Below are positions 15,605 to 64,000 of a stretch of 64,000 nt of DNA, one piece after another. This DNA comes from Clostridia bacterium. Its GTDB lineage: Bacteria > Bacillota > Sulfobacillia > JAJZYS01 > JAJYTV01. Position 1 is the stretch's first letter, and the number at the start of each line of letters is the position of its first letter. A program made the translations under genes and the position numbers. Where the stretch lies: the NCBI GenBank assembly GCA_027420455.1, contig DAIBJA010000072.1:24-64023 (forward strand), written 5' to 3'. The notes under the pieces were generated by a model. That model searched no databases, was not told the DNA's origin, and was given only the letters and a program-made list of their open reading frames with translations.

Positions 15605-15700
15605 AATACCCCGCGAAATGGCAAACGGCCCGAAAGGGTCGGACGCAAAGCTACGGGTCTAAGGCCAAAGTGGGCTATGATCGCCGGGCTGCCGAAGGGA
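15605..15700 (+). ncRNA. Candidate c-di-GMP-I (GEMM) riboswitch aptamer in the 5' leader of the flp/tad operon.
   Basis: Sequence ...AUGGCAAACGGCCCGAAAGGGUCGGACGCAAAGCUACGGGUCUAAGGCC... matches the GEMM hallmarks: GGCAAAC, GAAA tetraloop hairpin (GGCCC-GAAA-GGGUC), GGACGCAAAGC and CUAA. Compare V. cholerae Vc2 GGCAAACC..GAAA..GGGACGCAAAGCC..CCUAA. Confidence 0.65.
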
Positions 15701-15769: not shown

Positions 15770-15949
15770 ATGTTGATGGCCGTGTCTCAGTGCTCGAGCT
15801 TCCTGCGCCGCCTGCGTGCTACCGAGGGCCAGAGTATGGTCGAGTATGCCCTGATCATCGCGCTCGTCGCCGTTTTTGTGGTCGGTGCCGTGGTGTTTCT
15901 GGGGCATGGCATCAGCAACATCTTCGACAGCATCACCGGCAGTCTCTAA
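15770..15949 (+). CDS. flp: Flp-family type IVb pilin.
   Basis: 59 aa. Contains the G/XXXXEY prepilin motif (EG/QSMVEYALIIALVAV). AGGAGG RBS. Confidence 0.85.
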   Translation: MLMAVSQCSSFLRRLRATEGQSMVEYALIIALVAVFVVGAVVFLGHGISNIFDSITGSL

Positions 15950-36735: not shown

Positions 36736-38691
36736 ATGGACGTCAGTGTCAACCATCTCTGGGTCATCGTCAGCGCCTGCTTCGTCTTCTTCATGCAGGC
36801 CGGCTTCGTCTTCTACGAAGTGGGATTCGTGCAGGCCAAGAACGTGGTCAGCGTCGCCATCGAGAACATGCTCACGTTCATTATCGCGACGCTCGTGTTC
36901 GGGTTTCTCGGCTTCGCGTTCATGTTCGGCCCGACGCACCTCGGCATCGTCGGCGGCGGCTTCTTCTTTTTGAACCACCTGACGGCGGGCAGAAACTCGT
37001 TCGGCTACGTCTTCGCCTTCTTCGAACTCATGTTTGCCGCCACTTCGGTCACCATCGTCTCTGGCAGCATGTCGGAGCGGACGCGGCTCGTGCCGCTCCT
37101 GATCGCGGCCGTGTTCATGGCCGGCTTCATCTACCCGCTCTTTGGCCACTGGGCCTGGGGCGGCATGTTCCTGCATCAGCCGGCATGGCTCAAGAACCTC
37201 GGCTACATGGATTTCGCCGGCGCCACGGTGGTGCACGCCACGGCGGGCTGGGTCTCGCTTGCGGGCCTCATGATCGTCGGGCCGCGCAGGGATCGCTGGG
37301 ACGCCGAAGGCAGGGTGAAGCAGCTCGGCCGTTCAAACGTGCCGTTCGCGACGCTCGGAACGTTCATCCTGTGGTTCAGCTGGTTCGGCTTCAACGGCGG
37401 CAGCCTGCTGCAGTTCGACAGCCGCGTCGGACTCATCTTGCTCAACACGAACTTCGCGGCGGCGGGCGGCGTGGTGGGGGCGCTCCTGACCACGGCCCTC
37501 TTCATGCGGGACCACAGCTATATGGAGGCCATCTTCTCCGGCGCGCTCGGCGGCCTTGTCGCGATCACAGCGAGCTCGGACTATGTGCAACCGCCTCAGG
37601 CGGTGCTGGTGGGCCTGATCACCGGTTCCGTCGTGGTGCTGGCGAGCCTCTGGCTCGAGCGCAGGCGCCTCGACGACGCTGTCGGTGCGGTCCCGATCCA
37701 TGGCTTCGGCGGCGCCGTCGGAACGCTGCTCCTGGCGTTCTTCGCCGCGCCGCAGTTCCTGGGCGGGCAGACGAGACTCGTGAAGTTCCTCGTGCAGCTC
37801 CTGGGCGTATCGGTGAACTTCGTCTGGTCCTTCGGGCTCGGCTTCCTGATGTTCTACCTGATCAAGCGCTGGATCGGCCTGCGCGTGACCGAGGCGGAAG
37901 AGGAGAAGGGCCTCAACATCGTGGAGTTCGGCGATATCTACTCCTGGCAGGAGTACCTGCGCACCTCGCACTATGAACATCTCACGAGCGATCTCTCCGG
38001 GCGCATTCAGGTGCAGAACCAGCTTCTGCAGCGGCAGGCGCGCCTGCTCGTGGAGACGGAGGAGCACGAGCGCGTGCGCCTCGCGCGAGACCTGCATGAT
38101 GGCGTCGGCCAGTCGCTGGCGGCGCTCAAGCTGCGGCTCGGGATCATTGCGGGGAGGGTGCGCAGCAGCCGCGGCGGTCCCGAGATCGAGGCGCAAGTGG
38201 ACGAGACGGTGCAGCTGACTGCCCAGACGATCGAGGAGATCCGCGGCGTCCTCTTGAACCTCAGGCCCGACATCCTGCGCACCAGAGGTCTTGCGGCCGC
38301 CACAGAGGCCCTGCTCGAGGGCATGGAGAAGGCGAGCGGTATGCGATGCACCTTTGAGGCGCACGCGCAGATGCCGGACTGGGAGGAGGCGGCAGCCCTC
38401 AACATCTACCGCGTCCTGCAGGAGTCTCTCGCGAACGTGCTGAGGCATGCCCAGGCGACCAGGGTCGAGGTCACCTTCGCGCGCCTGCGCCCGGGGCTGT
38501 ACGCCTTTCAGGTCCGCGACGACGGCCACGGTTTCGCGCCGGACAACGTCCACCGCGGACTTGGGCTCAACTCCATGCAGGAGAGACTTCAGATGCTGGG
38601 CGGAGTCCTGCGCATCGACTCCGCAGTCGGGCGTGGCACGACCCTGACGATGGAGGTGCCTTATGAAGACCAGGGTCGTGATCGCGGATGA
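36736..38691 (+). CDS. Sensor histidine kinase with a complete N-terminal ammonium-transporter (Amt/MEP) domain as sensor (Amt-HK). The kinase is of the HisKA_3/NarX type.
   Basis: Amt signature DFAGATVVHATAG and about 11 TM helices over residues 1-400. H-box LARDLHDGVGQSLAALKL and a HATPase_c C-terminus. Confidence 0.85.
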   Translation: MDVSVNHLWVIVSACFVFFMQAGFVFYEVGFVQAKNVVSVAIENMLTFIIATLVFGFLGFAFMFGPTHLGIVGGGFFFLNHLTAGRNSFGYVFAFFELMFAATSVTIVSGSMSERTRLVPLLIAAVFMAGFIYPLFGHWAWGGMFLHQPAWLKNLGYMDFAGATVVHATAGWVSLAGLMIVGPRRDRWDAEGRVKQLGRSNVPFATLGTFILWFSWFGFNGGSLLQFDSRVGLILLNTNFAAAGGVVGALLTTALFMRDHSYMEAIFSGALGGLVAITASSDYVQPPQAVLVGLITGSVVVLASLWLERRRLDDAVGAVPIHGFGGAVGTLLLAFFAAPQFLGGQTRLVKFLVQLLGVSVNFVWSFGLGFLMFYLIKRWIGLRVTEAEEEKGLNIVEFGDIYSWQEYLRTSHYEHLTSDLSGRIQVQNQLLQRQARLLVETEEHERVRLARDLHDGVGQSLAALKLRLGIIAGRVRSSRGGPEIEAQVDETVQLTAQTIEEIRGVLLNLRPDILRTRGLAAATEALLEGMEKASGMRCTFEAHAQMPDWEEAAALNIYRVLQESLANVLRHAQATRVEVTFARLRPGLYAFQVRDDGHGFAPDNVHRGLGLNSMQERLQMLGGVLRIDSAVGRGTTLTMEVPYEDQGRDRG

Positions 38692-39304
38692 CCACAAGAT
38701 CCTGCGCCAGTCGCTTTTCATCCTGTTGCAGCAGGAAGACGACATTGAAGTCGTAGGCGAGGCGGGGAGCGGGCAGGAGGCGCTGGATGAAGTCCAGCGC
38801 CTGAAGCCGGACATTGCCATCCTCGACATTTCCCTGCCGCAGCTGAGCGGCCTCGACGTCGCGGCCCACCTCAGGCAGGCGATGCCCGACGTGCGCGTCA
38901 TCATCCTGACCATGCACAAGAGCGAGGAGTTCGTGGCGCGGGCCTTCCGCGAAAAGGTGCAGGGCTACGTCCTGAAGGACAATGCCCTCGAGGAGCTCCT
39001 GAAGGCCATCAGGGTCGTGCGCGGAGGTGGCACCTATGTCTCGCCCGACATCGCCGGCGCCATCGTCGCAGGCTTCGTGGAGAACTACAGCCAGGGTCGT
39101 GAACGGGATGTCATCTCGCCCCGCGAGCGGGAGATCGTGGAACTTCTCGCTGGCGGGCAGAGCAACCGGCAGATCGCGCAGCTTCTGAACCTCAGCCTCA
39201 AGACCGTGGAGACGCATCGCGCCAACATCATGCACAAGCTCGGCCTGCGGAGCATCCGGGATCTCGTGCTCTATGCCGTGCGCAACCATATCATCGAGCC
39301 GTAA
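38663..39304 (+). CDS. LuxR/NarL-family response regulator.
   Basis: Receiver domain (VVIADDH..ILDISLP) plus LuxR HTH (REREIVELLAGGQSNRQIAQLLNLSLKTVETH). Overlaps the kinase stop. Confidence 0.9.
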   Translation: MKTRVVIADDHKILRQSLFILLQQEDDIEVVGEAGSGQEALDEVQRLKPDIAILDISLPQLSGLDVAAHLRQAMPDVRVIILTMHKSEEFVARAFREKVQGYVLKDNALEELLKAIRVVRGGGTYVSPDIAGAIVAGFVENYSQGRERDVISPREREIVELLAGGQSNRQIAQLLNLSLKTVETHRANIMHKLGLRSIRDLVLYAVRNHIIEP

Positions 39305-41825: not shown

Positions 41826-42857
41826 TCAGCGGTAGGACTGGCGGGCCGCGAGGTAGCGGGGGTCTTCGCGCCGCAGACGGTCGGGATCGGTGCCGCGCGC
41901 AAGGGCAGCGTGGTAGGTCAGCAGCTGGAGAAAGACACCGGCAAGCCAGGGGTAGGTGTCGGCCGACGCCGACGGCGCCCAGGACGCGAGGGTCGGCAGG
42001 TCGATCGCAAGCAGGGAGAGATCGACGATCCCGGCCAGCTTCTTGAGGTCGTCCGCCCTATGGGCGGCCGCTGGACCGAGTATGGCGACCACGTGGTCAC
42101 CCGGCTCGTAGGCGGGGACGTAGCCGTGAAAGAACTGTTCGAGCTCGAGCGCCTGATTCTCGAGGTACGCGGCCTCGCTCAACTTGAGTCCGACCTCCCG
42201 GGCGAGGGGCAGCCCCTCGGCGGCGCCCAAGATCACGCGCCGGCCACCGAGCAGACCCTTTGCTGCCTGCGCGATCTCGCTCTCGTGTCTCAAGACCCCT
42301 GCGATGCCGTCCGCCACATCGATCGGCGAGGGCAGCGTCAACTGCGGCGGCAGCTGGGCGGCGGCCGCCTTCAGGAGCAGGACGGTCATGAGCGATGAGA
42401 GCGTGAAGCTGATCGTGTGGCACCATGAGAGTTCGCGGGCATAGCCGGTCGGAACCGTGACGCTCGCGAGGCTGGCCGCCGTGGAGGAAGGGAAGCCCGT
42501 GATCAGCACCGTGGGCACCTCGCGCTCTCGCGCGGCAGCGAGCAGGTCCAGCACGGCGGCGGTCTCGCCGGAATGGCTGAAGGCCACGATCGGACGCCGG
42601 CGGTCGAGCGGGACCTGCCGCTGCAGCAGGGGGAAGGCGCCGGACGCGACGACCTGGCCGCCTCGTTCGTATAAATAGCTGGCGGCGAGTTCCGCCGCGA
42701 ACAGCGCCGTGCCACAGCCGGCCAGGATCGGCACCTTGCCCGCCAGGATGCCGGCGGCGGCGTCGGCGCTGCGAGCCACCGCCTCGCCTAGCGCCAGCAC
42801 ATGAGCGGGCTGCGCCAGGATCTCCTCGTACATGTGGTAGGGGCCTTGGCCGCTCAA
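41826..42857 (-). CDS. SIS-domain sugar-phosphate isomerase/aminotransferase-like protein (double SIS, AgaS/GlmS C-terminal-like).
   Basis: Two SIS-domain motif regions. TTG start with GGAGGTG RBS. Sits at the 3' end of the pentose-phosphate operon. Confidence 0.75.
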   Translation of the reverse strand: MSGQGPYHMYEEILAQPAHVLALGEAVARSADAAAGILAGKVPILAGCGTALFAAELAASYLYERGGQVVASGAFPLLQRQVPLDRRRPIVAFSHSGETAAVLDLLAAAREREVPTVLITGFPSSTAASLASVTVPTGYARELSWCHTISFTLSSLMTVLLLKAAAAQLPPQLTLPSPIDVADGIAGVLRHESEIAQAAKGLLGGRRVILGAAEGLPLAREVGLKLSEAAYLENQALELEQFFHGYVPAYEPGDHVVAILGPAAAHRADDLKKLAGIVDLSLLAIDLPTLASWAPSASADTYPWLAGVFLQLLTYHAALARGTDPDRLRREDPRYLAARQSYR

Positions 42858-43582
42858 GACACCACCTCCGTCGACTCATCGGACACTGCCTCACGGTCGC
42901 AGAAGACCACGGTCTCCAGTCGGCCGCGCAGGAAAGAGGTGGGAATGCGGGGGTCCGGCGCCTCCGCCGCCAGCGCGGCATGCAGCGCCCTGCGCTTGGC
43001 CGCGCCCGTGACCAGGAAGAAGATCCGCGCCGTGCCCGATAGCGCCGCAGGCGTCAGCGAGATGCGCTCCCGGGGCGGAGTCGGCACGTAGGTCGCGATG
43101 GCGAGGTCGGCTGCGGCGAGGCCGGGGCAGCCGGGAAAGAGCGAGAGCGTGTGTCCTTCGGGCCCCATGCCGACCAGGGCCAAGGTGAACGGAGGCTGCT
43201 GTCCGAGTCGCTCGAGCAACCGGTCGTGATACCGGCGTGCGCCCTCCTCGCCACCGAGTTCTCCCAGCATGCGATGCACCCGCCCGGCGGCGATGCCGAG
43301 AGGCTTCAGCAGCGTCTCCTGCGCGAGGCGGTAGTTGCTCTTAGGGTGATCCGGTCCGACGCAGCGCTCGTCGCCGAACCAGTATTCCGCATCGTGCCAG
43401 TGCGGAGCGGCCGATTCCTCACCCGCGGTCGCCAGGATCACATAGACGGCGCGCGGCGTCTGCCCTCCCGCCAGCACGACCTGCGGCTCTTTTGCCTCGC
43501 GCAGCGCCTCGGCCATGGCGGTGGCGCAGGCCTTCATGGTGTCCGCGACCGTCGGAAAGACGCGCAGTTCGAGGCCGCTCAT
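42854..43582 (-). CDS. pgl: 6-phosphogluconolactonase.
   Basis: DevB/Pgl family, with HWHDAEYWFGDER and LVGMGPEGHTLSLFPG motifs. Confidence 0.85.
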   Translation of the reverse strand: MSGLELRVFPTVADTMKACATAMAEALREAKEPQVVLAGGQTPRAVYVILATAGEESAAPHWHDAEYWFGDERCVGPDHPKSNYRLAQETLLKPLGIAAGRVHRMLGELGGEEGARRYHDRLLERLGQQPPFTLALVGMGPEGHTLSLFPGCPGLAAADLAIATYVPTPPRERISLTPAALSGTARIFFLVTGAAKRRALHAALAAEAPDPRIPTSFLRGRLETVVFCDREAVSDESTEVVS

Positions 43583-45033
43583 CGCAGGTGCCAGCGGCGT
43601 CCGTCATGGTGCAGGAGCTCGTCGGCCGCCTCCGGTCCGAGGCTGCCGGCGCGGTAGATGTCCGGCCCGATTTCCTCCTGGCGCCAGCCCGCCTCGATGG
43701 CGTCCACCACCTGCCACGCGGCCTCGACCTCGTCGCGCCTAGTGAAGAGGGTGCCGTCACCGGTGATCGCGTCGTAGAGGAGACGCTCGTAAGCCTCGGT
43801 TCCCGGTTTGCCGAAGGTGCCATAGTCGAAGGCCATGTCGACGTCGCGCAGCTCGATGCGCAGGCCGGGCACCTTGGCCCCGACCGACAGAGTCATGCCC
43901 TCGTCCGGCTGGATCCGCAGCCTGAGCACGTTGGGCTGCAGGCGCGTCTCGCGCGGGAAGAGGCGCTGCGGGGCGCGCTGGAACTGCACCGAGATTTCGC
44001 TGACGCGGCGCCCGAGGCGCTTGCCGGTGCGCAGGTAGAAGGGCACGTCGGCCCAGCGCCAGTTCTCGACCTGCAGTTTGACAGCCGCGAACGTCTCCTG
44101 CTGGGAGTCGCGGCGCACGTCGGGTTCCTCCCGGTAGCCAGGCACCGGCTTGCCGGCCATTTCGCCCGGTCCGTACTGACCCCGCACGGTCACGTTCGGC
44201 ACCTCGTGCGGTGCGGGCAGCCTGAGCGCGCGCAGCACCTTGACCTTTTCGTTGTGCACCTGCTCGGCGTCGAAGGTGACAGGCGGCTCCATGGCGATCA
44301 GGGTCAGGAGCTGCAGGAGGTGGTTCTGCATCATGTCCCGCAGCGCTCCGGCCTCCTCGTAGTACTTGCCGCGGTGCTCCACGCCGATCGACTCCATCAC
44401 CGAGATCTGGACGTGGTCGACGTAGCGCCTGTTCCAGAGCGGCTCGAAGATGCCGTTCGCGAAGCGCAGGACGAGGATGTTCTGCACGGTCTCCTTGCCG
44501 AGATAGTGGTCGATGCGGAAGACCTGGTCCTCCCGGAACACCGAGAGAAGTTCCTGGTTGAGCTCTCGCGCGCTGAGAAGATCATGGCCGAACGGTTTCT
44601 CGACGATGATGCGGCTGAAGCCGTGGGATTCGTCCTGCAGCCCGACGCTGCCGAGTGCCTGGAAGATGTCGGTATAGGTGCTGGGCGGCGCCGCCAGATA
44701 GAAGATGCGGCCAGCGAACGGTCCCTGGGCGGCCTCGATCTCATCGAGCCGGCTGCCAAGGGCCTTGTAGTCGTCCGCCTGGCGAAGGTCGCCTACGACG
44801 TAGACGGCCTGGGCTATCACGTCGTCGGCGTCGCTGCCTTCCACGGTCTCGTGCAGGCGCTGGCGGAAGCTCTCGTCGTCGAGAGGCTGCCGTGCGAAGC
44901 CGACGAGCGGCATCGGGCCTCCGATCAGGCCGGCGCGTCGCAGGCCCGCGATCGCCGGAACCAGCTTGCGATGGGTGAGGTCGCCTGTGGCGCCGAGGAC
45001 GCAGAGCAGGACTCCCCTGGCCTGCGCGCTCAT
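43579..45033 (-). CDS. zwf: Glucose-6-phosphate 1-dehydrogenase.
   Basis: GATGDL NADP site, and RIDHYLGKE and EKPFG motifs. Start at the internal ATG with GGTGGAGAG RBS; the 5' extension of the 675-aa ORF is low complexity. Confidence 0.9.
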   Translation of the reverse strand: MSAQARGVLLCVLGATGDLTHRKLVPAIAGLRRAGLIGGPMPLVGFARQPLDDESFRQRLHETVEGSDADDVIAQAVYVVGDLRQADDYKALGSRLDEIEAAQGPFAGRIFYLAAPPSTYTDIFQALGSVGLQDESHGFSRIIVEKPFGHDLLSARELNQELLSVFREDQVFRIDHYLGKETVQNILVLRFANGIFEPLWNRRYVDHVQISVMESIGVEHRGKYYEEAGALRDMMQNHLLQLLTLIAMEPPVTFDAEQVHNEKVKVLRALRLPAPHEVPNVTVRGQYGPGEMAGKPVPGYREEPDVRRDSQQETFAAVKLQVENWRWADVPFYLRTGKRLGRRVSEISVQFQRAPQRLFPRETRLQPNVLRLRIQPDEGMTLSVGAKVPGLRIELRDVDMAFDYGTFGKPGTEAYERLLYDAITGDGTLFTRRDEVEAAWQVVDAIEAGWRQEEIGPDIYRAGSLGPEAADELLHHDGRRWHLR

Positions 45034-45926
45034 CGGCTCTCCACCTTGTGTCCGCCGAATTCGTTGCGCAGGGCGGCGATCACCCGGTTGGCCAGGGTGT
45101 CCTCCTGGCGCGAGAGGAAGCGCTGCTGCAGGGAGAGCGTGATCACCGGCGCCGCGACGCCGCGCTCGATCGCCTCGACGGCCGTCCAGCGGCCTTCGCC
45201 GGAATCGTCGACATAACCGCGCAGGTGCTGAAGCTCCGGGTCCTTCTCGAGCGCCTGAGCCAGGAGGTCGAGAAGCCAGCTGCGCACGACCGAACCGTGT
45301 CGCCACAGCTCGGCCACCTCCTCGAGCTGCAGGTCGAACGGTCCGCGCTTCAGGAGCTCGAAGCCTTCGCCGTAGGCTTCGAGCATGCCGTACTCGATCC
45401 CGTTGTGCACCATCTTGACGTAATGCCCTGAGCCTGGCGCCCCGGTGTGGAGCAGGCCGCCCTCCGGGGCCAGGGCCTTGAGCGCCGGTTCGAGACGGCT
45501 GAACGCTTCGACGCTGGCACCGACCATGAGGCAGTAGCCCTCCTGGAGGCCCCAGATGCCGCCGCTCGTGCCGGCGTCGACGAACTCCACCTCCGCGGCT
45601 TCGCACAGCTTCGCCATCTCGATGCTGTCCTTGTAGTGGCTGTTGCCGCCATCCACCAGGATGTCGCTGGGCCCGACGCGCTCCAAGAGATGCGCGATGG
45701 TCTTCTGGGTGGGGGCGCCGGCCGGAACCATCAGCCAGACGACGCGGGGTGGCCGCAGCATCTCGCAGAGATCATCGAGCGACGACGCCGTGCCGATGCC
45801 GTCGGACTCCACGGCTTTGCGGGCTTCCTCGCTCGGGTCGAACCCGATCACCCGGTGACCGCCGCGCGCGAGGCGCCGCGCCATGTTGGCGCCCATGCGT
45901 CCGAGTCCCACCATGCCGATCTCCAT
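45030..45926 (-). CDS. gnd: 6-phosphogluconate dehydrogenase, short (YqeC/GndA-like, decarboxylating) form.
   Basis: GLGRMGANMARRL Rossmann fold, 298 aa. Confidence 0.85.
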   Translation of the reverse strand: MEIGMVGLGRMGANMARRLARGGHRVIGFDPSEEARKAVESDGIGTASSLDDLCEMLRPPRVVWLMVPAGAPTQKTIAHLLERVGPSDILVDGGNSHYKDSIEMAKLCEAAEVEFVDAGTSGGIWGLQEGYCLMVGASVEAFSRLEPALKALAPEGGLLHTGAPGSGHYVKMVHNGIEYGMLEAYGEGFELLKRGPFDLQLEEVAELWRHGSVVRSWLLDLLAQALEKDPELQHLRGYVDDSGEGRWTAVEAIERGVAAPVITLSLQQRFLSRQEDTLANRVIAALRNEFGGHKVESR

Positions 45927-45932
45927 CGTGCT

Positions 45933-48587
45933 TCAGCTCCCTTCGCTGGGGGCCATGGCCGCGATCACGCCGGCCAGGCGCTCGATCTCCTCCTCTGCGT
46001 TGCCGTCGAGCAGCACACGGGCGAACGGGCGGCCTCGAGCGATGAGCGCCTGGGCGTCACCCTCCGCCTGCGCCGCAAAGAGCGCGGCGAGCGTGAAGGG
46101 AAGTCCGGGAATGTCGATGTTCCCCTCGGGCGGCGCGTAGAGCTGGAGGAAACTGCCGCTGTCCGGGCCGCCTTTGTGGTACTGTCCCGTGGAATGCAGG
46201 TAGCGGGGGCCGATGCCTACGGTGACCACCGCGCCGGTGCGGTCGGCGACCTTCTGGCCGAGGCCGCGCGCTGCTGCCAGCAGCGACGGGTCCGACCGCG
46301 CGTAGACCTGCACCGCCAGGTATCCAGGCGGCTCCACGGCGGACACCACATCCATCGGGTCGCCTACCTCTGCGAGCGCACCGCCGCTCCGGCCGTCCTT
46401 GAGGACCTCTTCCGTGTTCCGCTTGCTCTCGGCCACGTTCGGCTCGTCGAAGGGGTCGATCTCGAGCAGGCGACCGAGGAGCGCAGTGGCGCACTCCCAG
46501 GTCGCGACGGCGGCGCCGAGCGCGGCTGCATCTTCTAGGGCGCCGAGCGCGATGTACGGCACCGCGCTCGAGCCTGTGCCGAAACTGACACCGATGCGAT
46601 CGGCTCCCGGCGGCGAACCTGGCGCTGGCAGGACGCCGCGGCCGGACTTGCCGGTGCTCTCGGCGAGAAGCTGCTCGAGCCAGTCGACGAAGGGCAGGTC
46701 GTCCGTCGGAGGCAGGGCGAGCTTCTGCCTGCCTGCTCCGTGCGCCGCAGCCAAGGCGGCCGCCAGCCTGGCTGCGGTAGAGTGCTCCGTCGCCCCCAGG
46801 AGCTCTGTCATCGCCTCGCGACCTCCGGCGAGCAGCGCTTCGAGGTCGTAGCCGAGCACGGCGCCCGGCACGAGGCCAAAGAGAGAGAGAGCCGAGTAGC
46901 GCCCGCCGATGTCCGGCGGGTTCAAAAAGCAGCCGCCGAAGCGCTCGGCCTCCGCCAGTGCGCTCAGCGGGGTGCCGGGATCGGTGATCGCGTAGAAGCG
47001 TCGGCTGGCCCCCTCGCCGAGGACATGGTCGGCCGCCGCGCGCAGGATGTGGTAGAGTACCTCCACTTCCCGCGTGGTGCCGCTCTTCGATGAGAGCAGC
47101 ACGGCCGTCTCCTGCCAGCTGATGCCGGCAAGCAGTGCCTCTATGGCGTCCGGCTGCGTGGTATCCACGACGTCGAGGGTGATGCGCGGCGCCGGCGCGA
47201 GACGCCGCAGCACGTCAGGGAAGAGGGAACTGCCACCCATGCCGCACAGTACCAGACGGCGCACGCCCTGCCGCTGGAGATCCTGCGCGAACGCCTCGAG
47301 CTCCGGCAGCCGCTCCTGCATGGCATCGCAGAGCTGCAGCCAGCCAAGGCGCCTCTTCGCCACCTCCGGCGCGTCGAAGAGCAGAGTGTCTCCTCTCCTC
47401 AGGCGTTCTGCGGCATCCTCGGCCGCCAAGGACTCGAGATGCGCCGCTGCAGGCCCGACGAGAGCCCCCAGGGCGAAGCTTCCCGCGTCGCTCGGACGCA
47501 GTTCCTTGGCCTTGATCTCGATCTCGTTGAAAAGGCGCGCGAAGGCGTCCTCGAAGCTAGCGACGCCCTGGCGCTGGAGCTCCTCGCCGACCGCTTCGAG
47601 ATCGAAGCCGAGCCGCGTCAGCCCTTCGACGACCTGCCGCGCTTCGCCGATTCCCTCATGCAGCGTCGTGCGGGCCAGGCCATGGTCGCGGAAGGCCGTC
47701 AGTGTGGCGGGAGGGATCGTGTTGACTGTCTCCGGCCCGATCAGTTCCTCGACGTAGAGCGTGTCGCGGTAGGCGGGGTTCTTCGTGGACGTGCTCGCCC
47801 AAAGCGGCCGCTGCGCGCTGGCGCCGTGCCGCTTGAGTTCGGCGAAGGGCGCCCCGTGGAAGATCTCCGAGAAGGCTTCGTAGGCGAGTCGCGCATTGGC
47901 GACGGCCGCCTTGCCCGCGAGCGCTCCGGCCTCCTCGCCCAGTGCCTCGAGGCGGGGGTCGAGCAGGGTGTCGACGCGGCTCACGAAGAAGCTCGCCACG
48001 GAGTGGATGCCCGAGACGTCGAGGCCCTCCTTGAGACGGCGTGCCAGGCCCTTGACGTAGGCCTCGGCTATGCGCCGGTACTGGGAGAGGGAGAAGAGCA
48101 GCGTGACGTTGATGTTGAGTCCCTGGTAGGTGAGCTCCTCGATCGCCTGGGCACCTTCGACGGTGCCCGGCACCTTGATCATGATGTTCGGCAGGCCGAG
48201 GCGACCGAAGAGGTGCATAGCTTCCTGGATCGTCCCCTCGGCGTCGTGCGCCAGGTGCGGGGAGACTTCGAGACTGACGAAGCCGTCCTGGCCGCGGCTT
48301 GCATCGTGCACGCCGCGCAGGATCTCGGCCGCGAGGCCGATGTCGCGCAGCGCGAGCTCCTCGTAGATCTCTGCGGTACCTGCCCCGAGCGCCGCGAGCG
48401 CGGCGATCTGTGGGTCGTAATCGCGGCTGCGACCGATCGCCTGTTCGAAGATGGCCGGGTTCGAAGTGACGCCGCGGACGCCTGAGGCCACGTCGCGGCT
48501 GAAGCCTCCGTCGCGCAGATAGGAACGCAGGATGTAGTCGATCCAGACGCTCTGTCCGAGTTCCTGCAGGTCGATGAGATCAGACAT
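45933..48587 (-). CDS. tal-pgi: Bifunctional transaldolase / glucose-6-phosphate isomerase.
   Basis: N-terminal transaldolase domain of about 370 aa ([14 protein letters not shown]). C-terminal PGI domain of about 500 aa. Confidence 0.85.
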
Positions 48588-50640
48588 GGCGATCCTCCTT
48601 TCCGAGCAGTGTGCGCACAGCCTCCTGGACCGCCTCGGGCGTCAGCCCGAACGCACGGTAGAGCACCTCACCGGGGGCCGAGGCGCCGAAGTCGTCGAGG
48701 GCCACGCAGGCCCGGCGCGGGCCGAGGAAGGGCAGGAACTGTCCCGGCTCCGCGGCGACGACGGCCACCTGGGGCAGGCCCGGCGGCAGTACGGATGCCC
48801 GCTCCGCCTCTCCCCTCGCGGCGAATGTCTTGAAGCAGGGAGCGCTCACCACGCGCACCTCCAAGCCCTCCGTCCTCAGCCGCTCCTGGGCGGCCAAGGC
48901 GATCGAGACCTCGCTGCCCGAGGCGACGAGCACGGCTGCAGGGGGACCTTCCGCGTCGCGCAGCACGTAGGCGCCCTGTTCGATCGCATCCTCCGGCACG
49001 CCCGCGAGCACCGGCAGCTTCTGCCGGCTGAGCGCGAGGGCCGTCGGGTGCCCTGCAGAGCTCGCCGCAAATGCCCAGGCGAGCCGGGTCTCGCTTGCGT
49101 CGGCCGGACGGATGACGAAGAGGTTCGGAATCAGCTCGAGCGCCGCGAGCTGCTCGATCGGCTGGTGCGTCGGCCCGTCCTCGCCGAGGCCGATCGAGTC
49201 GTGGGTCAGGACGTAGGTCACAGGCAGGCGCATCAGGGCTGAGAGCCGCATCGAGGGCCGCATGTAGTCCGAGAAGATCAGGAAGGTGCCGCCATATGGC
49301 CTCAGTCCGCCGTGCGCAGCCATGCCGTTCATGATCGCGGCCATCGCGTGCTCGCGCACCCCGAAGTGGATGTTGCGGCCGGCGAAGTCACCTGCCGCGA
49401 TGTCGCCGAGGCCGGTGAGCGCTGTGTCATTCGACGGGGCAAGGTCCGCCGAGCCGCCCAGGAGGTCGGGCAGGCGCAGCGCGAGGCGCTGCAGGACCTT
49501 GCCCGAGGCCGAGCGGGTTGCCATCTCGCCCTCGGCGGGGAAGGGGGGGATATCCTGCCTTATGTCTTCAGACGGACTGCCGGCCATCACGCGCAGGAAC
49601 TCGACGTGGAGTTCGGGATCCGCGTCGCGCATGAGGTCGAGGCGCTTCTGCCACTCCGCGACGAGCTGTTCGCCGCGCTTTCGATACTGCGGCGCGAAGG
49701 CCTTCACGTCGTCCGGCAACCAGAATGTCTCGCCTTCGGGCACGCCGAGGAAGCGATGCGTCGCGGCCGTCGCATCCGGTCCCAGCGCCGCACCGTGTAC
49801 CGCGGCCGTATCCACCTTGGGCGAGCCGTAGCCGATGTGGGTGCGGACCCCAATGAGCACGGGTCCGTCCGCAGCCTCTGCCTGGGTGACGGCACGGTCG
49901 ATGGCCGCGAGGTCGTTGCCGTCGTCGACCGCGAGCACCTGCCAGCCGTAGGAACGGAAGCGCTCTGCGGTATCGTCGGTGAACGCGAGATCGGTGGACC
50001 CTTCGATCGAGATCCGGTTGTCGTCGTAGAGGACGATCAGCCCCGGCAGGCGGAGATGACCGGCGAAGGAGGCCGCTTCATGCGAGATCCCTTCCATCAG
50101 GTCGCCATCCGAGCAGATCACGTAGGTGCGGTGGCGGACGGCTTCGCGCCCGGGCCTGTTGTAGCGGGCGGCGAGGTGCGCCGCGCCGAGTGCCATGCCG
50201 ACGGCATTGGCGATGCCCTGGCCGAGCGGACCGGTCGTGACCTCGATGCCGGGGGTGACGCCCCGCTCGGGATGTCCGGGTGTCCTGCTGCCCCACTGGC
50301 GGAACTGCTTCAGCTCGTCCAGCGGGAGGTCGTAGCCGAAAACATGCAGGAGCGCGTAAACTAGTGCCGAACCGTGGCCTGCGGAGAGTACGAAGCGATC
50401 GCGGTCGGGCCAGTCCGGCGCCTGCGGCGCGAAGCGGAGATGGCGGGAGAAGAGGACATAGGCCATCGGAGCCGCTCCGAGCGGCAGTCCCGGGTGGCCG
50501 GAGCGTGCCTTTTCCACCTCATCGACGGCGAGAGCCCTGAGGACGTTGACGACCCGCGTATCTTCCGCCCCGAAGCCGGAGCCGGCCCGGGGGGCATCAC
50601 CGGCGGCAGCCGGCGTACTCGGCCTCAGGGTTCCTCCCAT
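48580..50640 (-). CDS. tkt: Transketolase.
   Basis: [12 protein letters not shown] and [11 protein letters not shown] motifs. Start at the internal ATG ([10 protein letters not shown]...), downstream of an AT-rich promoter-like element. Confidence 0.85.
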
Positions 50641-61074: not shown

Positions 61075-61637
61075 AGGGCTTTCTGGACGGCCTCGACGTC
61101 CGCAGGCTGCGCACCTGGCTTGGGCTCGCCATCGCTGCTGCGGCCGTACTGCTCATTGTCACGACATTCTTCAGCGCTGCGCCTGCAACGACGACTCCGG
61201 TCGCCTCCACTTCGTCTTCGTCGGCGAAGTCGCAGGTAGCCGGCCAGGACATCATCAACTACCAGAATGTGCTCGCCGCGTCAGTCGCGAGCGCGCTGTC
61301 GGTCGTCAAGGGAGCGGGTGACGTGCGCGTGACGCTGAGCCTGCACGGCGGTCCGGGCTACCTCTACGCCTTCAACCAGACAACGCGCCGGCAGACGACT
61401 GGGAGCGGCAGCAGCACAGCCATCGACATCACGAGCCAGACGACCCTGGCCACCGCGGGTTCCGCCCAGACGCCCGTCCTGACGCAGGAGACGGCACCGA
61501 AGGTCGAGGGAGCGCTGATCGTGGCCTCGGGCGCCGCGAATCCCGTGGTCCGCGAGGAACTTAGCCAGGCGGCCCAGGCGCTTCTGGACCTGCCGGCGTA
61601 CGCGATCGAGGTCCTGCCGGCGGGAGGTGGCCGCTGA
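61071..61637 (+). CDS. spoIIIAG: Stage III sporulation protein AG.
   Basis: GTGA coupling. Single TM helix, ring-building-motif C-domain with EGALIVASGA. Confidence 0.8.
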   Translation: MKGFLDGLDVRRLRTWLGLAIAAAAVLLIVTTFFSAAPATTTPVASTSSSSAKSQVAGQDIINYQNVLAASVASALSVVKGAGDVRVTLSLHGGPGYLYAFNQTTRRQTTGSGSSTAIDITSQTTLATAGSAQTPVLTQETAPKVEGALIVASGAANPVVREELSQAAQALLDLPAYAIEVLPAGGGR

Positions 61638-62143
61638 TGCCGCGCATCGATCGCGAGCAGGCCTGGCGCTGGTCCCTGCTGCTGGCACTCCTCCTCCTCA
61701 TCGTCGTCTACCTCTGGTGGCGGGAGCATCCGCAGGCGCAGCTGCCGCCGCCGGGCGCGACGCAGGCGATTAGCCGCACGCCCCTGCCTGCGAGCGCCGA
61801 CCTTGCCGCAGTCGTGAACCTGCGTCTGTCGCGCGACCAGACCCAGAGCCGTTCGCTCGCCGAACTGACCCAGATCGCCGAGGTGGCCCAGAGCAGCCAG
61901 TCCCGGCAGGTGGCAGGGGACCAGGCTGCGGATCTGACACGCGTCATGCGCGTTGAGCAGGAGACCGACGCTGAACTTGCGTCGCGGGACTACCAGGCAG
62001 CGACCGTGATTGCGTCGGGGCGGGCGGAGGTCACCCTGGCCAATGTCCACCTGTCCCTGAGGCAGGTCGTCGAGATCGCGTCCACCGTGGAAACGGTGAC
62101 CGGGCTACCGCCTGAGGCCATCCGCATCGTGCCGGGAGGCTGA
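61637..62143 (+). CDS. spoIIIAH: Stage III sporulation protein AH.
   Basis: TGATG coupling. Single N-terminal TM helix, YscJ/FliF-like C-domain. Confidence 0.8.
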   Translation: MPRIDREQAWRWSLLLALLLLIVVYLWWREHPQAQLPPPGATQAISRTPLPASADLAAVVNLRLSRDQTQSRSLAELTQIAEVAQSSQSRQVAGDQAADLTRVMRVEQETDAELASRDYQAATVIASGRAEVTLANVHLSLRQVVEIASTVETVTGLPPEAIRIVPGG

Positions 62144-62225
62144 TCTCCGGGCAACGTGGAGGAATCGCCATTCGGACGGGCGAACATCCTTCTGTTTCAC
62201 CAGGGAGGGATGATCCATCCGAAAG

Positions 62226-63575
<1,350 letters not shown>

Positions 63576-63651: not shown

Positions 63652-63814
63652 CGCGCTGCTTAGCCCGTTGCCTCGGCGCCTTGTTTCGTCGACCGGTCGA
63701 CCGTGCGGTGCTATAAGATGGTACCGGGCTTGAGGCGGGGCGAGCGCTGCCCGGAGCCAGATCGGCTGAGGGTGGCCTGACACCGCGCCTCGAGCGGCGG
63801 AAGGAGGTCACAAG

Positions 63815-64000
63815 ATGCGCCGTTTGGACCTGCGTGGTCAGTGCTGACTGGGGCCGATCATCAGCGTGGCTGATGTCATGCGGGCAATGGCGGTGGGAGA
63901 AAAGCTCGTGGTGCAAGCGGACAAGAAGTCCGTTCCGCGCGATCTCGAGGCCTTTGCGCGCACTACGGGCAATCGCTTCCTTGGCGCGGAAAACGAAGGA
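63815..64000 (+). CDS. TusA/SirA-like sulfurtransferase-family ORF, partial at the window end, with an in-frame TGA (63845..63847) at the catalytic-Cys position. Candidate selenocysteine-containing protein; the alternative is a nonsense-disrupted pseudogene.
   Basis: Perfect AAGGAGG RBS 7 nt before the ATG. Translation MRRLDLRGQC[TGA]LGPIISVADVMRAMAVGEKLVVQADKKSVPRDLEAFARTTGNRFLG aligns gaplessly to TusA/YrkF (LDAKGLACPMPIV...ATDPGS..DIP.WAK.TGHELL), with TGA opposite the CPxP cysteine. Confidence 0.5.

What the first reader, a model, noticed from the sequence alone, without database searches (positions are those of the whole stretch)
63801..64000. TusA-like ORF with UGA at the catalytic-cysteine position plus a downstream hairpin: candidate selenoprotein
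A consensus RBS (AAGGAGG, 7-nt spacer) drives an ORF that reads MRRLDLRGQC-TGA-LGPIISVADVMRAMAVGEKLVVQADKKSVPRDLEAFARTTGNRFLG... Across the TGA this aligns without gaps to the TusA/SirA (YrkF N-domain) fold. The TGA sits exactly where the persulfide-carrying Cys of the CPxP motif lies, which is the classic Sec-for-Cys signature. A perfect 7-bp hairpin (CAUCAGC-GUG-GCUGAUG, 63859..63875) starts 12 nt after the UGA and has a G-U-containing apical loop, roughly the geometry of a bacterial SECIS. A single Cys-to-stop mutation is the alternative, but coding potential and family similarity continue strongly after the TGA. The ORF is truncated by the window edge.
Basis: partly seen in the sequence, partly recalled or inferred. 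Interest (0 to 1): 0.7.

Follow-up and report, generated by a model that had tools for sequence, protein, structure and literature searches.

The report
Selenocysteine-containing TusA sulfur-carrier gene
This is very probably a real gene for a small TusA-type sulfur-carrier protein whose reactive cysteine is replaced by selenocysteine, a selenoprotein type that is absent from a May 2026 catalogue of 119 prokaryotic selenoprotein families.

Summary
A Shine-Dalgarno site (63801-63807) and an ATG (63815) open a TusA-family ORF with an in-frame TGA at 63845-63847, on the catalytic-Cys column. A 7-bp hairpin lies at 63859-63875. Within this window the hairpin is not beyond chance; the case rests on comparison.

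I read the DNA of ten related sequences from independent assemblies. All keep the TGA at that codon. The codons before it stay the same at the amino-acid level through synonymous changes. Every sequence has a hairpin starting exactly 11 nt after the TGA. Four of its seven base pairs show compensatory double changes (96% of cells paired; 0 of 500 shuffles reach this).

The one full-length relative without a TGA has Cys there (QCCSPP against QCULGP) and no in-register hairpin.

One TGA-carrying relative is in the closed genome of Ca. Hydrogenisulfobacillus filiaventi. Its published annotation lists SelA, SelB and SelD, and a formate dehydrogenase split into two fragments.

The full gene is 87 codons. 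It matches Pfam TusA end to end, and the Cys form models as a TusA fold.

Sec machinery in the window's own MAG could not be tested. Every gene caller truncated this family.

The parts
63801..63807 (+). Shine-Dalgarno site AAGGAGG, 7 nt before the start codon
   Evidence: Read directly. A comparable purine-rich site precedes the upstream start in 9 of the 10 TGA-carrying sequences and in the Cys homolog. Lineage 4 has none obvious. No such site precedes the internal ATG used by gene callers.
63815..63844 (+). Start codon and the first ten codons (MRRLDLRGQC): TusA strand beta-1 and the loop leading to the active site, ending in Cys10 (TGC 63842-63844)
   Evidence: Across lineages 1-3, 7 of 9 residues are conserved but only 1 codon is identical. 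Examples are Arg CGT/AGG/CGC, Gly GGT/GGA/GGC and Leu TTG/CTC. This is protein-level selection upstream of the TGA. The stretch aligns to TusA residues 11-18.
63845..63847 (+). In-frame TGA, proposed selenocysteine codon (residue 11), on the column of the persulfide-carrying Cys of TusA
   Evidence: Conserved in all 10 related sequences whose DNA was read. It is replaced by TGC in the Cys homolog L018. It aligns to Cys19 of E. coli TusA.
63859..63875 (+). bSECIS-like hairpin: 5' arm 63859-63865 (CAUCAGC), loop 63866-63868 (GUG), 3' arm 63869-63875 (GCUGAUG). It starts 11 nt after the UGA.
   Evidence: The stem-loop folds at -7.8 kcal/mol. It meets the bSECIS model constraints. On 8 lineages, 96.4% of cells pair and 4 of 7 pairs show compensatory double changes; 0 of 500 shuffles reach this, and slid controls give 14-61% paired. 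In lineages 1-3, 6 of the 8 amino-acid-conserved codons at positions 12-22 are identical at the nucleotide level, against 12 of 36 elsewhere (Fisher p=0.04).
63848..64000 (+). Rest of the TusA-domain coding region (helix 1 onward), cut by the window end. The complete gene would end at about 64078.
   Evidence: Same-contig loci L001-L004 give the full 87-codon gene. Pfam TusA covers residues 3-70.
63878..63880 (+). Internal ATG (codon 22) at which public gene callers start the truncated 66-aa product P0001. Probably not a real start.
   Evidence: P0001 and P0002 begin here. The position is CTG in lineages 4 and 6 and GTG in lineage 5b. No downstream start is conserved.

Best explanation
The locus encodes an 87-residue TusA-family sulfur-carrier protein. 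Its active-site cysteine (CPxP in canonical TusA) is replaced by selenocysteine, giving a Cys-Sec dyad (C10-U11, motif RGxCUxxP).

Proposed mechanism:
1. Translation starts at ATG 63815, behind a strong Shine-Dalgarno site.
2. UGA 63845-63847 is read as Sec because the hairpin 11 nt downstream acts as a bacterial SECIS.
3. SelB bound to GTP and Sec-tRNA(Sec) docks on that hairpin.
4. The finished protein has the beta-alpha-beta-alpha-beta-beta TusA fold, with Sec at the N-cap of helix 1. There it would accept a sulfane sulfur, or selenium, as an Se-S or Se-Se adduct and pass it to partners such as DsrE-type proteins.
5. The neighbouring Cys10 may resolve or protect the adduct as a selenenylsulfide.

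Shown here:
- the conserved UGA;
- protein-level selection on both sides of it;
- a conserved and covarying hairpin at fixed spacing;
- a Cys-containing homolog;
- TusA family membership and fold;
- SelA, SelB and SelD annotated in a closed genome that carries a member.

Inferred:
- that Sec is actually inserted;
- that the window's own organism has the machinery;
- the sulfur or selenium relay function and its partners.
For: 1. The TGA sits on the catalytic Cys column of TusA.
2. The TGA is conserved in 10 of 10 related sequences from independent assemblies (NCBI MAGs, ENA, JGI, Logan and a closed genome), at 38-70% protein identity.
3. Upstream codons are kept at the amino-acid level through synonymous changes. 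A Shine-Dalgarno site sits before the upstream start in nearly all lineages.
4. The hairpin starts 11 nt after the TGA in every lineage. Compensatory changes are:
   - pair 2, A-U to C-G, in lineage 6;
   - pair 5, A-U to G-C, and pair 6, G-C to C-G, in Ca. H. filiaventi;
   - pair 7, C-G to A-U, in lineages 5 and 5b.
   Several of these cost amino-acid changes (S to R with A to S; I to L with D to E).
5. All bSECIS model criteria are met.
6. The full-length Cys homolog P0010 reads RGQCCSPP with TGC. Written in register by eye, only 3 of 7 stem positions could pair, with no contiguous helix.
7. TGA is the commonest ordinary stop in the window (41 of 77 long high-GC3 ORFs) and ends this gene itself.
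8. Supplementary Table S1 of PMC10080006 annotates SelD (R50_v2_0656), SelA (R50_v2_0858) and SelB (R50_v2_1470) in Ca. H. filiaventi. All three are transcribed. A formate dehydrogenase is split into two 'fragments'. Sec-containing FDHs are reported in all Sulfobacillus genomes (PMC4378227).
9. The AlphaFold model of the Cys form has pLDDT 85.6. Its best PDB matches are E. coli TusA, YeeD and a SirA-like protein, with TM 0.71-0.86.
Against: - No selA, selB, selD or tRNA-Sec was found in the 64-kb window or in any fetched locus. The rest of the window's MAG could not be searched.
- The hairpin is short, with a 3-nt loop at the lower limit of the bSECIS model, and is not unusually stable for this 68% G+C sequence.
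- In most lineages the stem is invariant. The covariation rests on four single-lineage events, and the Ca. H. filiaventi loop had to be trimmed by hand to keep the alignment in register.
- The Ca. H. filiaventi member (R50_v2_0214) is essentially untranscribed under the three published conditions, at 0-0.5 RPKM.
- There is no proteomic or selenium-labelling evidence.
Confidence: 0.85

Rival explanations
1. The UGA is a true stop. The upstream frame makes only a 10-residue leader peptide, and an N-terminally truncated TusA-like protein is made from a downstream start, as public gene callers assume. The hairpin would then be a regulatory or coupling element.
For: All databases hold only the truncated products. 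In lineages 1-3 an ATG lies 3 nt after the hairpin.
Against: - No downstream start is conserved. Codon 22 is CTG in lineages 4 and 6 and GTG in 5b. Callers then fall back on a GTG in the hairpin loop, which is GTC in lineages 3 and 5.
- No Shine-Dalgarno site precedes the internal ATG.
- The ten upstream residues match TusA strand beta-1 and the active-site loop and are conserved as protein.
- A truncated product would lack beta-1 and the only catalytic residue.
- The Cys homolog is one continuous ORF.
Confidence: 0.05
2. The UGA is read through without selenocysteine, by near-cognate insertion of Trp, Cys or Arg. The hairpin merely slows release-factor action.
For: The base after the UGA is C in the eight sequences of lineages 1-4 and 6 (A6 holds six of them; L006 and L027) and G in lineages 5, 5b and 7. 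My own recollection, not checked here, is that UGA-C is a leaky termination context in bacteria. Sec machinery is unverified in the window's organism.
Against: - A leaky stop held for this long at the one catalytic position, when a single-base change to TGC/TGT or TGG would give efficient synthesis, is hard to explain without a benefit from Sec.
- The hairpin fits the SelB-binding bSECIS geometry and covaries.
- A closed genome carrying a member has SelA, SelB and SelD annotated.
Confidence: 0.06
3. Pseudogene or sequencing or assembly error: a Cys codon mutated or misread as TGA.
For: A single TGC-to-TGA change would produce the pattern seen in one sequence.
Against: The same TGA appears in 10 divergent sequences from independent assemblies and sequencing projects, including a closed genome. 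Both flanks are under purifying selection.
Confidence: 0.01
4. The organism uses a genetic code in which UGA is a sense codon (Trp or Gly).
For: None beyond the in-frame TGA itself.
Against: TGA is the most frequent terminator of long high-GC3 ORFs in the window (41 of 77). It ends accC and this gene itself in several lineages.
Confidence: 0.01

Closest known systems
TusA / SirA / YhhP sulfur-carrier proteins (Pfam PF01206; E. coli TusA, PDB 1dcj and 3lvj)
   Same: It matches the Pfam model over its full length, above the gathering score (59.4 bits against 28.6). It aligns without gaps to E. coli TusA. The Cys form has the predicted beta-alpha-beta-alpha-beta-beta fold, with TM 0.71-0.81 to TusA. 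The reactive residue sits at the N-cap of helix 1, and the second Pro of CPxP is kept.
   Different: The reactive Cys is encoded by UGA (Sec). The first Pro of CPxP is replaced by L, G or A. An extra Cys immediately precedes the Sec in 9 of the 10 TGA-carrying sequences and in the Cys homolog. There is a conserved C-terminal tail (LERLPGSRL). It scores below the cut-offs of the NCBIfam equivalogs for TusA, YedF and YeeD, so it is a separate subfamily.
YedF (TIGR03527), the TusA-like 'selenium metabolism protein'
   Same: It has a TusA-like domain and a link to selenium biology. YedF co-occurs with SelD (PMC5322559).
   Different: YedF is about 200 aa, carries a C-terminal DsrE-like domain, and uses Cys in CPxP. 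It is not a selenoprotein. Our protein scores 14-19 bits against cut-offs of 79-110 and has a single domain.
Known selenoprotein forms of sulfur-trafficking proteins: DsrE-like (PF02635, UxxC), rhodanese-like forms 1-5, HesB-like
   Same: Sec replaces a sulfur-handling Cys in a small carrier or transferase, decoded through an in-ORF bSECIS (Table 1 of PMC13188914).
   Different: They have different folds and families. No PF01206 / TusA / SirA entry exists among the 119 catalogued families.
'CU' dipeptide selenoproteins (SaoL, HgcA, SaoC, KCU-star, MbdU, Csac_0668-type 2Fe-2S protein)
   Same: They have an adjacent Cys-Sec dyad and are habitually truncated in databases at the CU site (bioRxiv 10.1101/2022.07.06.499078; Table 1).
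   Different: The folds are unrelated. In several of those families the CU lies near the C-terminus, whereas here it is at residues 10-11. The Ca. H. filiaventi member has GU instead of CU.

Membership tests
TusA family (Pfam PF01206) | Sequence matches the family HMM above the curated gathering score over most of the domain | tested here: met
   With U read as C: 59.4 bits against a cut-off of 28.6, E=3.2e-16, model positions 2-69 of 70. Four other members score 47-50 bits.
TusA family (Pfam PF01206) | Two-layer alpha/beta sandwich (beta-alpha-beta-alpha-beta-beta) with the reactive residue at the N-terminus of helix 1 | tested here: met
   The model of the Cys homolog P0010 has pLDDT 85.6, with elements E2-5, H14-24, E30-35, H38-51, E54-61 and E66-72. 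The top PDB matches are TusA 3lvj_C, YeeD 8k1r and SirA-like 3hz7. This was tested on the Cys homolog, not on the window protein itself.
TusA family (Pfam PF01206) | Conserved Cys in a CPxP motif that carries the persulfide | tested here: not met
   The column holds UGA (proposed Sec), not Cys. The motif is C-U-[LGA]-x-P. Chemically this is an analogous replacement, so it is a Sec variant rather than a canonical member.
NCBIfam equivalogs TusA (NF001423), YedF (NF008242, TIGR03527), YeeD/TsuB (NF041048) | Score at or above the curated equivalog cut-off | tested here: not met
   28, 19.2, 14.3 and 17.5 bits against cut-offs of 78, 79, 110 and 147.5 (on the 62 residues in the window).
Bacterial selenoprotein gene | In-frame UGA conserved among orthologs, with coding signal on both sides | tested here: met
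   10 of 10 sequences keep the TGA.
Bacterial selenoprotein gene | Homologs with Cys aligned to the UGA | tested here: met
   P0010 / L018 has TGC at the aligned codon. The whole TusA family has Cys there.
Bacterial selenoprotein gene | bSECIS stem-loop immediately downstream: 3-9 nt loop, 4-16 bp stem, G in the first two loop positions, 16-37 nt from UGA to loop, MFE <= -7.5 kcal/mol | tested here: met
   Criteria are from PMC13188914, Fig. 2 legend. Here the loop is GUG (3 nt), the stem 7 bp, the spacing 18 nt and the energy -7.8 kcal/mol. The stem is conserved with 4 covarying pairs. bSECISearch itself was not run.
Bacterial selenoprotein gene | Genome encodes SelA, SelB, SelD and tRNA-Sec | tested here: inconclusive
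   None is present in the window or in any fetched locus. In Ca. H. filiaventi, which carries a member, SelA, SelB and SelD are annotated by the authors; tRNA-Sec was not checked.
Bacterial selenoprotein gene | Selenium demonstrated in the protein (75Se labelling or mass spectrometry) | not testable with these tools
   This needs an experiment.

The most novel reading that the evidence does not exclude
A previously uncatalogued selenoprotein family: a TusA sulfur carrier that works through a selenocysteine (Cys-Sec dyad), in aerobic, thermoacidophilic Sulfobacillus-related Bacillota. It would form selenopersulfide (Se-S) intermediates in sulfur trafficking. Alternatively it could be a dedicated selenium carrier feeding SelD, the missing selenium-delivery step.
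Probability: 0.8. Interest if true: 0.65.

Novelty: new member of a known kind. Interest (0 to 1): 0.6.

Why it matters
TusA is a central and well-studied hub of bacterial sulfur trafficking (tRNA thiolation, molybdenum cofactor, dissimilatory sulfur oxidation). A natural Sec version of it matters for four reasons.

1. It adds a family to the prokaryotic selenoproteome. A May 2026 catalogue of 119 families lists DsrE-like, rhodanese-like and HesB-like selenoproteins but no TusA.
2. It offers a natural test of what Sec does at a persulfide-carrier site, namely Se-S against S-S chemistry.
3. It touches the open question of how selenium is delivered to SelD, because TusA-like YedF is already linked to selenium use.
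4. It exposes a systematic annotation error. All 11 TGA-type database entries of this family are N-terminally truncated and lack their active site.

One carrier, Ca. H. filiaventi R50, is in pure culture, so the prediction can be tested directly.

Tried and rejected
- Rfam at gathering thresholds on the whole window found only a c-di-GMP-I riboswitch and nothing at this locus.
- ARAGORN found no tRNA or tRNA-Sec in the window or in 20 loci.
- The hairpin alone is not significant by folding z-scores or by a count of TGA-plus-hairpin combinations in the window. I therefore dropped it as stand-alone evidence.
- The genome contigs and metagenome-contig scans with family alignments found only 2 species representatives and 1 JGI contig. 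The family is narrow, and these scans could not then be reused to look for sel genes in the MAG.
- MAFFT misplaced the longer loop of the Ca. H. filiaventi hairpin. I trimmed 5 loop nucleotides by hand to keep the stems in register, and this is flagged as a manual step.
- A scan of the window and five loci for other in-frame TGAs flanked by coding signal found only adjacent same-frame genes and no second selenoprotein candidate.
- Precomputed Pfam calls for window positions 9-52 kb and 54-64 kb plus 10 kb downstream show no SelA, SelB or SelD.
- The promoter scan found nothing in the 239-nt upstream spacer.
- I ran no further search on SelA/SelB. Hits cannot be filtered by genome, so success was unlikely.

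Full report
**1. Observation**

- AAGGAGG is at 63801-63807, followed by a 7-nt spacer and ATG at 63815.
- The ORF reads MRRLDLRGQC-TGA-LGPIISVADVMRAMAVGEKLVVQADKKSVPRDLEAFARTTGNRFLGAENEG and runs off the window.
- The TGA is at 63845-63847.
- The perfect hairpin is CATCAGC / GTG / GCTGATG at 63859-63875, beginning 11 nt after the TGA.

With the TGA read as Cys, the window part hits Pfam TusA at E=5e-13. HMMER aligns it without gaps to E. coli TusA (1dcj, 3lvj) and places the TGA on Cys19 of CPxP.

The hairpin on its own is not statistically remarkable.
- Folding of the surrounding 41-60 nt is no better than shuffles, with z from +0.2 to -0.9.
- The + strand of this 67.7% G+C window holds 16 combinations of a TGA in any frame with a 7-bp hairpin of bSECIS-like geometry. 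Random sequence gives 8 +/- 4.

The question therefore had to be settled by comparison with other sequences.

**2. The complete gene and its setting**

The public protein database holds this gene only as a 66-aa product (P0001) called from the internal ATG at 63878. The same contig in other assemblies (L001-L004, including NCBI MAG JAJYNV01 'Bacillota bacterium DBS2-4.bin93') shows the whole gene. It is 87 codons followed by a TGA stop. The full protein covers Pfam TusA positions 2-69 of 70 at E=3e-16.

The gene lies between accC (62226-63575) and asp23-nusB-folD-xseAB, downstream of the spoIIIA operon. The organism is thus a high-G+C, spore-former-type Bacillota. TGA is the commonest ordinary stop codon here and terminates accC and this gene itself. 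UGA is therefore not generally reassigned.

**3. Comparative evidence**

Searches gave a very small family: 12 clusters in 5.8 billion proteins and 14 hits among 1.84 billion representatives. Eleven of the 12 clusters are N-terminally truncated gene calls.

I read the DNA of ten related sequences. I group them as lineages 1, 2 (two variants), 3, 3b, 3c, 4, 5, 5b, 6 and 7. Lineage 7 is the closed genome of Ca. Hydrogenisulfobacillus filiaventi R50 (LR778114.1).

Every one has:
- a start codon, usually behind a good Shine-Dalgarno site;
- 10 codons (12 in lineage 7) of TusA-like N-terminus, x-x-L-D-[LIV]-R-G-x-[CG];
- then TGA;
- then the rest of the TusA domain in frame.

In lineages 1-3, 7 of 9 upstream residues are conserved but only one codon is identical (Arg CGT/AGG/CGC, Gly GGT/GGA/GGC, Leu TTG/CTC). 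The peptide before the TGA is therefore under protein-level selection. By contrast, of the 8 amino-acid-conserved codons at positions 12-22, which cover the hairpin, 6 are nucleotide-identical, against 12 of 36 elsewhere (Fisher p=0.04). They include AT-ending GCT and GAT in a genome with GC3 near 85%.

**4. The hairpin covaries**

In all lineages a stem starts exactly 11 nt after the TGA. The changes are compensatory:
- lineage 6: pair 2, A-U to C-G (Ile to Leu together with Asp to Glu);
- Ca. H. filiaventi: pair 5, A-U to G-C, and pair 6, G-C to C-G, with an 8-nt loop;
- lineages 5 and 5b: closing pair, C-G to A-U (Ser to Arg together with Ala to Ser).

In lineages 4 and 6 the closing pair is lost. 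That leaves a 6-bp stem and a 5-nt loop, C-GUG-U or C-GUG-A.

On an 8-lineage alignment, the count of structure pairs gives 96.4% of cells paired and 4 of 7 pairs with changes on both sides. No shuffle out of 500 reaches this, and slid-partner controls give 14-61% paired. The Ca. H. filiaventi loop was trimmed by 5 nt by hand for this alignment.

The element meets each constraint of the published bSECIS model (PMC13188914; energy).

| Constraint | Model | Here |
|---|---|---|
| Loop length | 3-9 nt | 3 nt |
| Stem length | 4-16 bp | 7 bp |
| Loop sequence | G, then G or U, at the start | G-U |
| UGA-to-loop spacing | 16-37 nt | 18 nt |
| MFE | <= -7.5 kcal/mol | -7.8 kcal/mol |

**5. Sec/Cys pair**

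The only full-length member without a TGA, P0010 (L018), reads MQDIDIRGQCCSPPLIQV… It has TGC at the aligned codon. Written in register by eye, only 3 of 7 stem positions could pair, with no contiguous helix. The motif is therefore C-U in the Sec forms and C-C in the Cys form.

**6. Fold**

An AlphaFold model of P0010 with the family alignment has pLDDT 85.6 and a beta-alpha-beta-alpha-beta-beta topology. The CC sits in the loop just before helix 1. Foldseek's best PDB matches are E. coli TusA (3lvj_C), YeeD/TsuB (8k1r) and a SirA-like protein (3hz7), with TM 0.71-0.86.

**7. Sec machinery**

Nothing relevant lies in the window or in the fetched loci.

Supplementary Table S1 of the Ca. H. filiaventi paper (PMC10080006) lists:
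- 'Selenide, water dikinase' (R50_v2_0656);
[quoted passage not shown] All three are transcribed. The table also lists a formate dehydrogenase annotated as two fragments (R50_v2_1911/1912), the usual trace of an unrecognised Sec codon. Sec-containing formate dehydrogenases are reported for all Sulfobacillus genomes (PMC4378227). The clade therefore decodes Sec. For the window's own organism this remains an inference.

By neighbourhood, the Ca. H. filiaventi member is R50_v2_0214. It is almost silent under the published growth conditions, at 0-0.5 RPKM.

**8. Mechanism and function**

Most likely the UGA is recoded to Sec by SelB bound to the hairpin. This gives a TusA-type carrier with a Cys-Sec dyad at the site where TusA carries its persulfide.

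Functional hints are weak and vary by lineage:
- a DsrE gene is divergently adjacent in lineage 4;
- a Cys/Met-metabolism PLP enzyme lies directly upstream in lineages 3, 3b and 3c;
- a rhodanese gene lies 8 kb away in Ca. H. filiaventi.

A sulfane-sulfur relay role, or possibly a selenium relay role, is inferred from family membership. It has not been shown.

**9. Rival explanations**

- Termination plus a separately initiated truncated protein is disfavoured. No downstream start or Shine-Dalgarno site is conserved. The upstream peptide is conserved as part of the TusA fold. The truncated product would lack its active site.
- Non-Sec read-through cannot be fully excluded without proteomics. 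It does not explain a covarying SECIS-like hairpin.
- Pseudogene or sequencing error, and an alternative genetic code, are excluded by the comparative data and by stop-codon usage.

**10. Novelty**

A May 2026 catalogue of 119 prokaryotic selenoprotein families and subfamilies (PMC13188914, Table 1) contains DsrE-like, rhodanese-like and HesB-like selenoproteins and several 'CU' families. It has no TusA, SirA or PF01206 entry.

NCBIfam release 20 has no model that claims this protein. Literature searches on TusA or SirA-like with selenoprotein found only Cys-type YedF and SirA-like proteins associated with selenium metabolism.

I therefore rate it a new member (family) of a known kind. The recoding mechanism is standard, but the family is new to the selenoproteome. 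It is restricted, as far as these databases show, to a narrow group of Sulfobacillus-related Bacillota.

Noticed in passing
window 15610-15696 (+): A c-di-GMP-I riboswitch (Rfam RF01051, 83.6 bits, full length) lies directly upstream of a Flp/TadE/Tad/RcpC/ParA-like/T2SSE/T2SSF pilus operon (Flp gene at about 15770-15949).
   Followed up: partly
window 36736-38691 (+): A 651-aa fusion of an ammonium transporter with a HisKA_3/HATPase_c histidine kinase. It is followed by a GerE-type response regulator (38663-39304) and a second Amt gene.
   Followed up: no
window 41826-50640 (-): A pentose-phosphate cluster containing an 884-aa transaldolase-PGI fusion (45933-48587), next to transketolase, 6PGD, G6PD, 6-phosphogluconolactonase-like and SIS-domain genes.
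   Followed up: no
window 61637-63575 (+): accC (biotin carboxylase) follows spoIIIAH after an 82-nt gap, with no accB gene between them.
   Followed up: no
L005 8535-9893; L012/L024/L027 upstream of the TusA gene; L019 713-1093: The slot between accC and the TusA-Sec gene varies. Lineage 2 has an S41-peptidase-like gene there, and lineages 3, 3b and 3c have a Cys_Met_Meta_PP (PLP) enzyme. In lineage 4 a DsrE-family gene is divergently adjacent. These are possible functional partners.
   Followed up: partly
Ca. H. filiaventi R50_v2_1911/1912 (Supplementary Table S1 of PMC10080006): A formate dehydrogenase is annotated as two 'fragments'. This is probably another unrecognised Sec-UGA in that genome.
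   Followed up: no
P0003 (L019 1265), P0021 (L022 321): Gene callers started two truncated family members at the GTG that forms the hairpin loop. All 11 TGA-type database entries of the family lack the N-terminal strand and the active site.
   Followed up: yes
window 63666-63678 (L001 9789-9801): A weak terminator-like hairpin with a T-rich tail lies in the accC-tusA spacer. No sigma-70-like promoter was found in the 239-nt spacer.
   Followed up: partly
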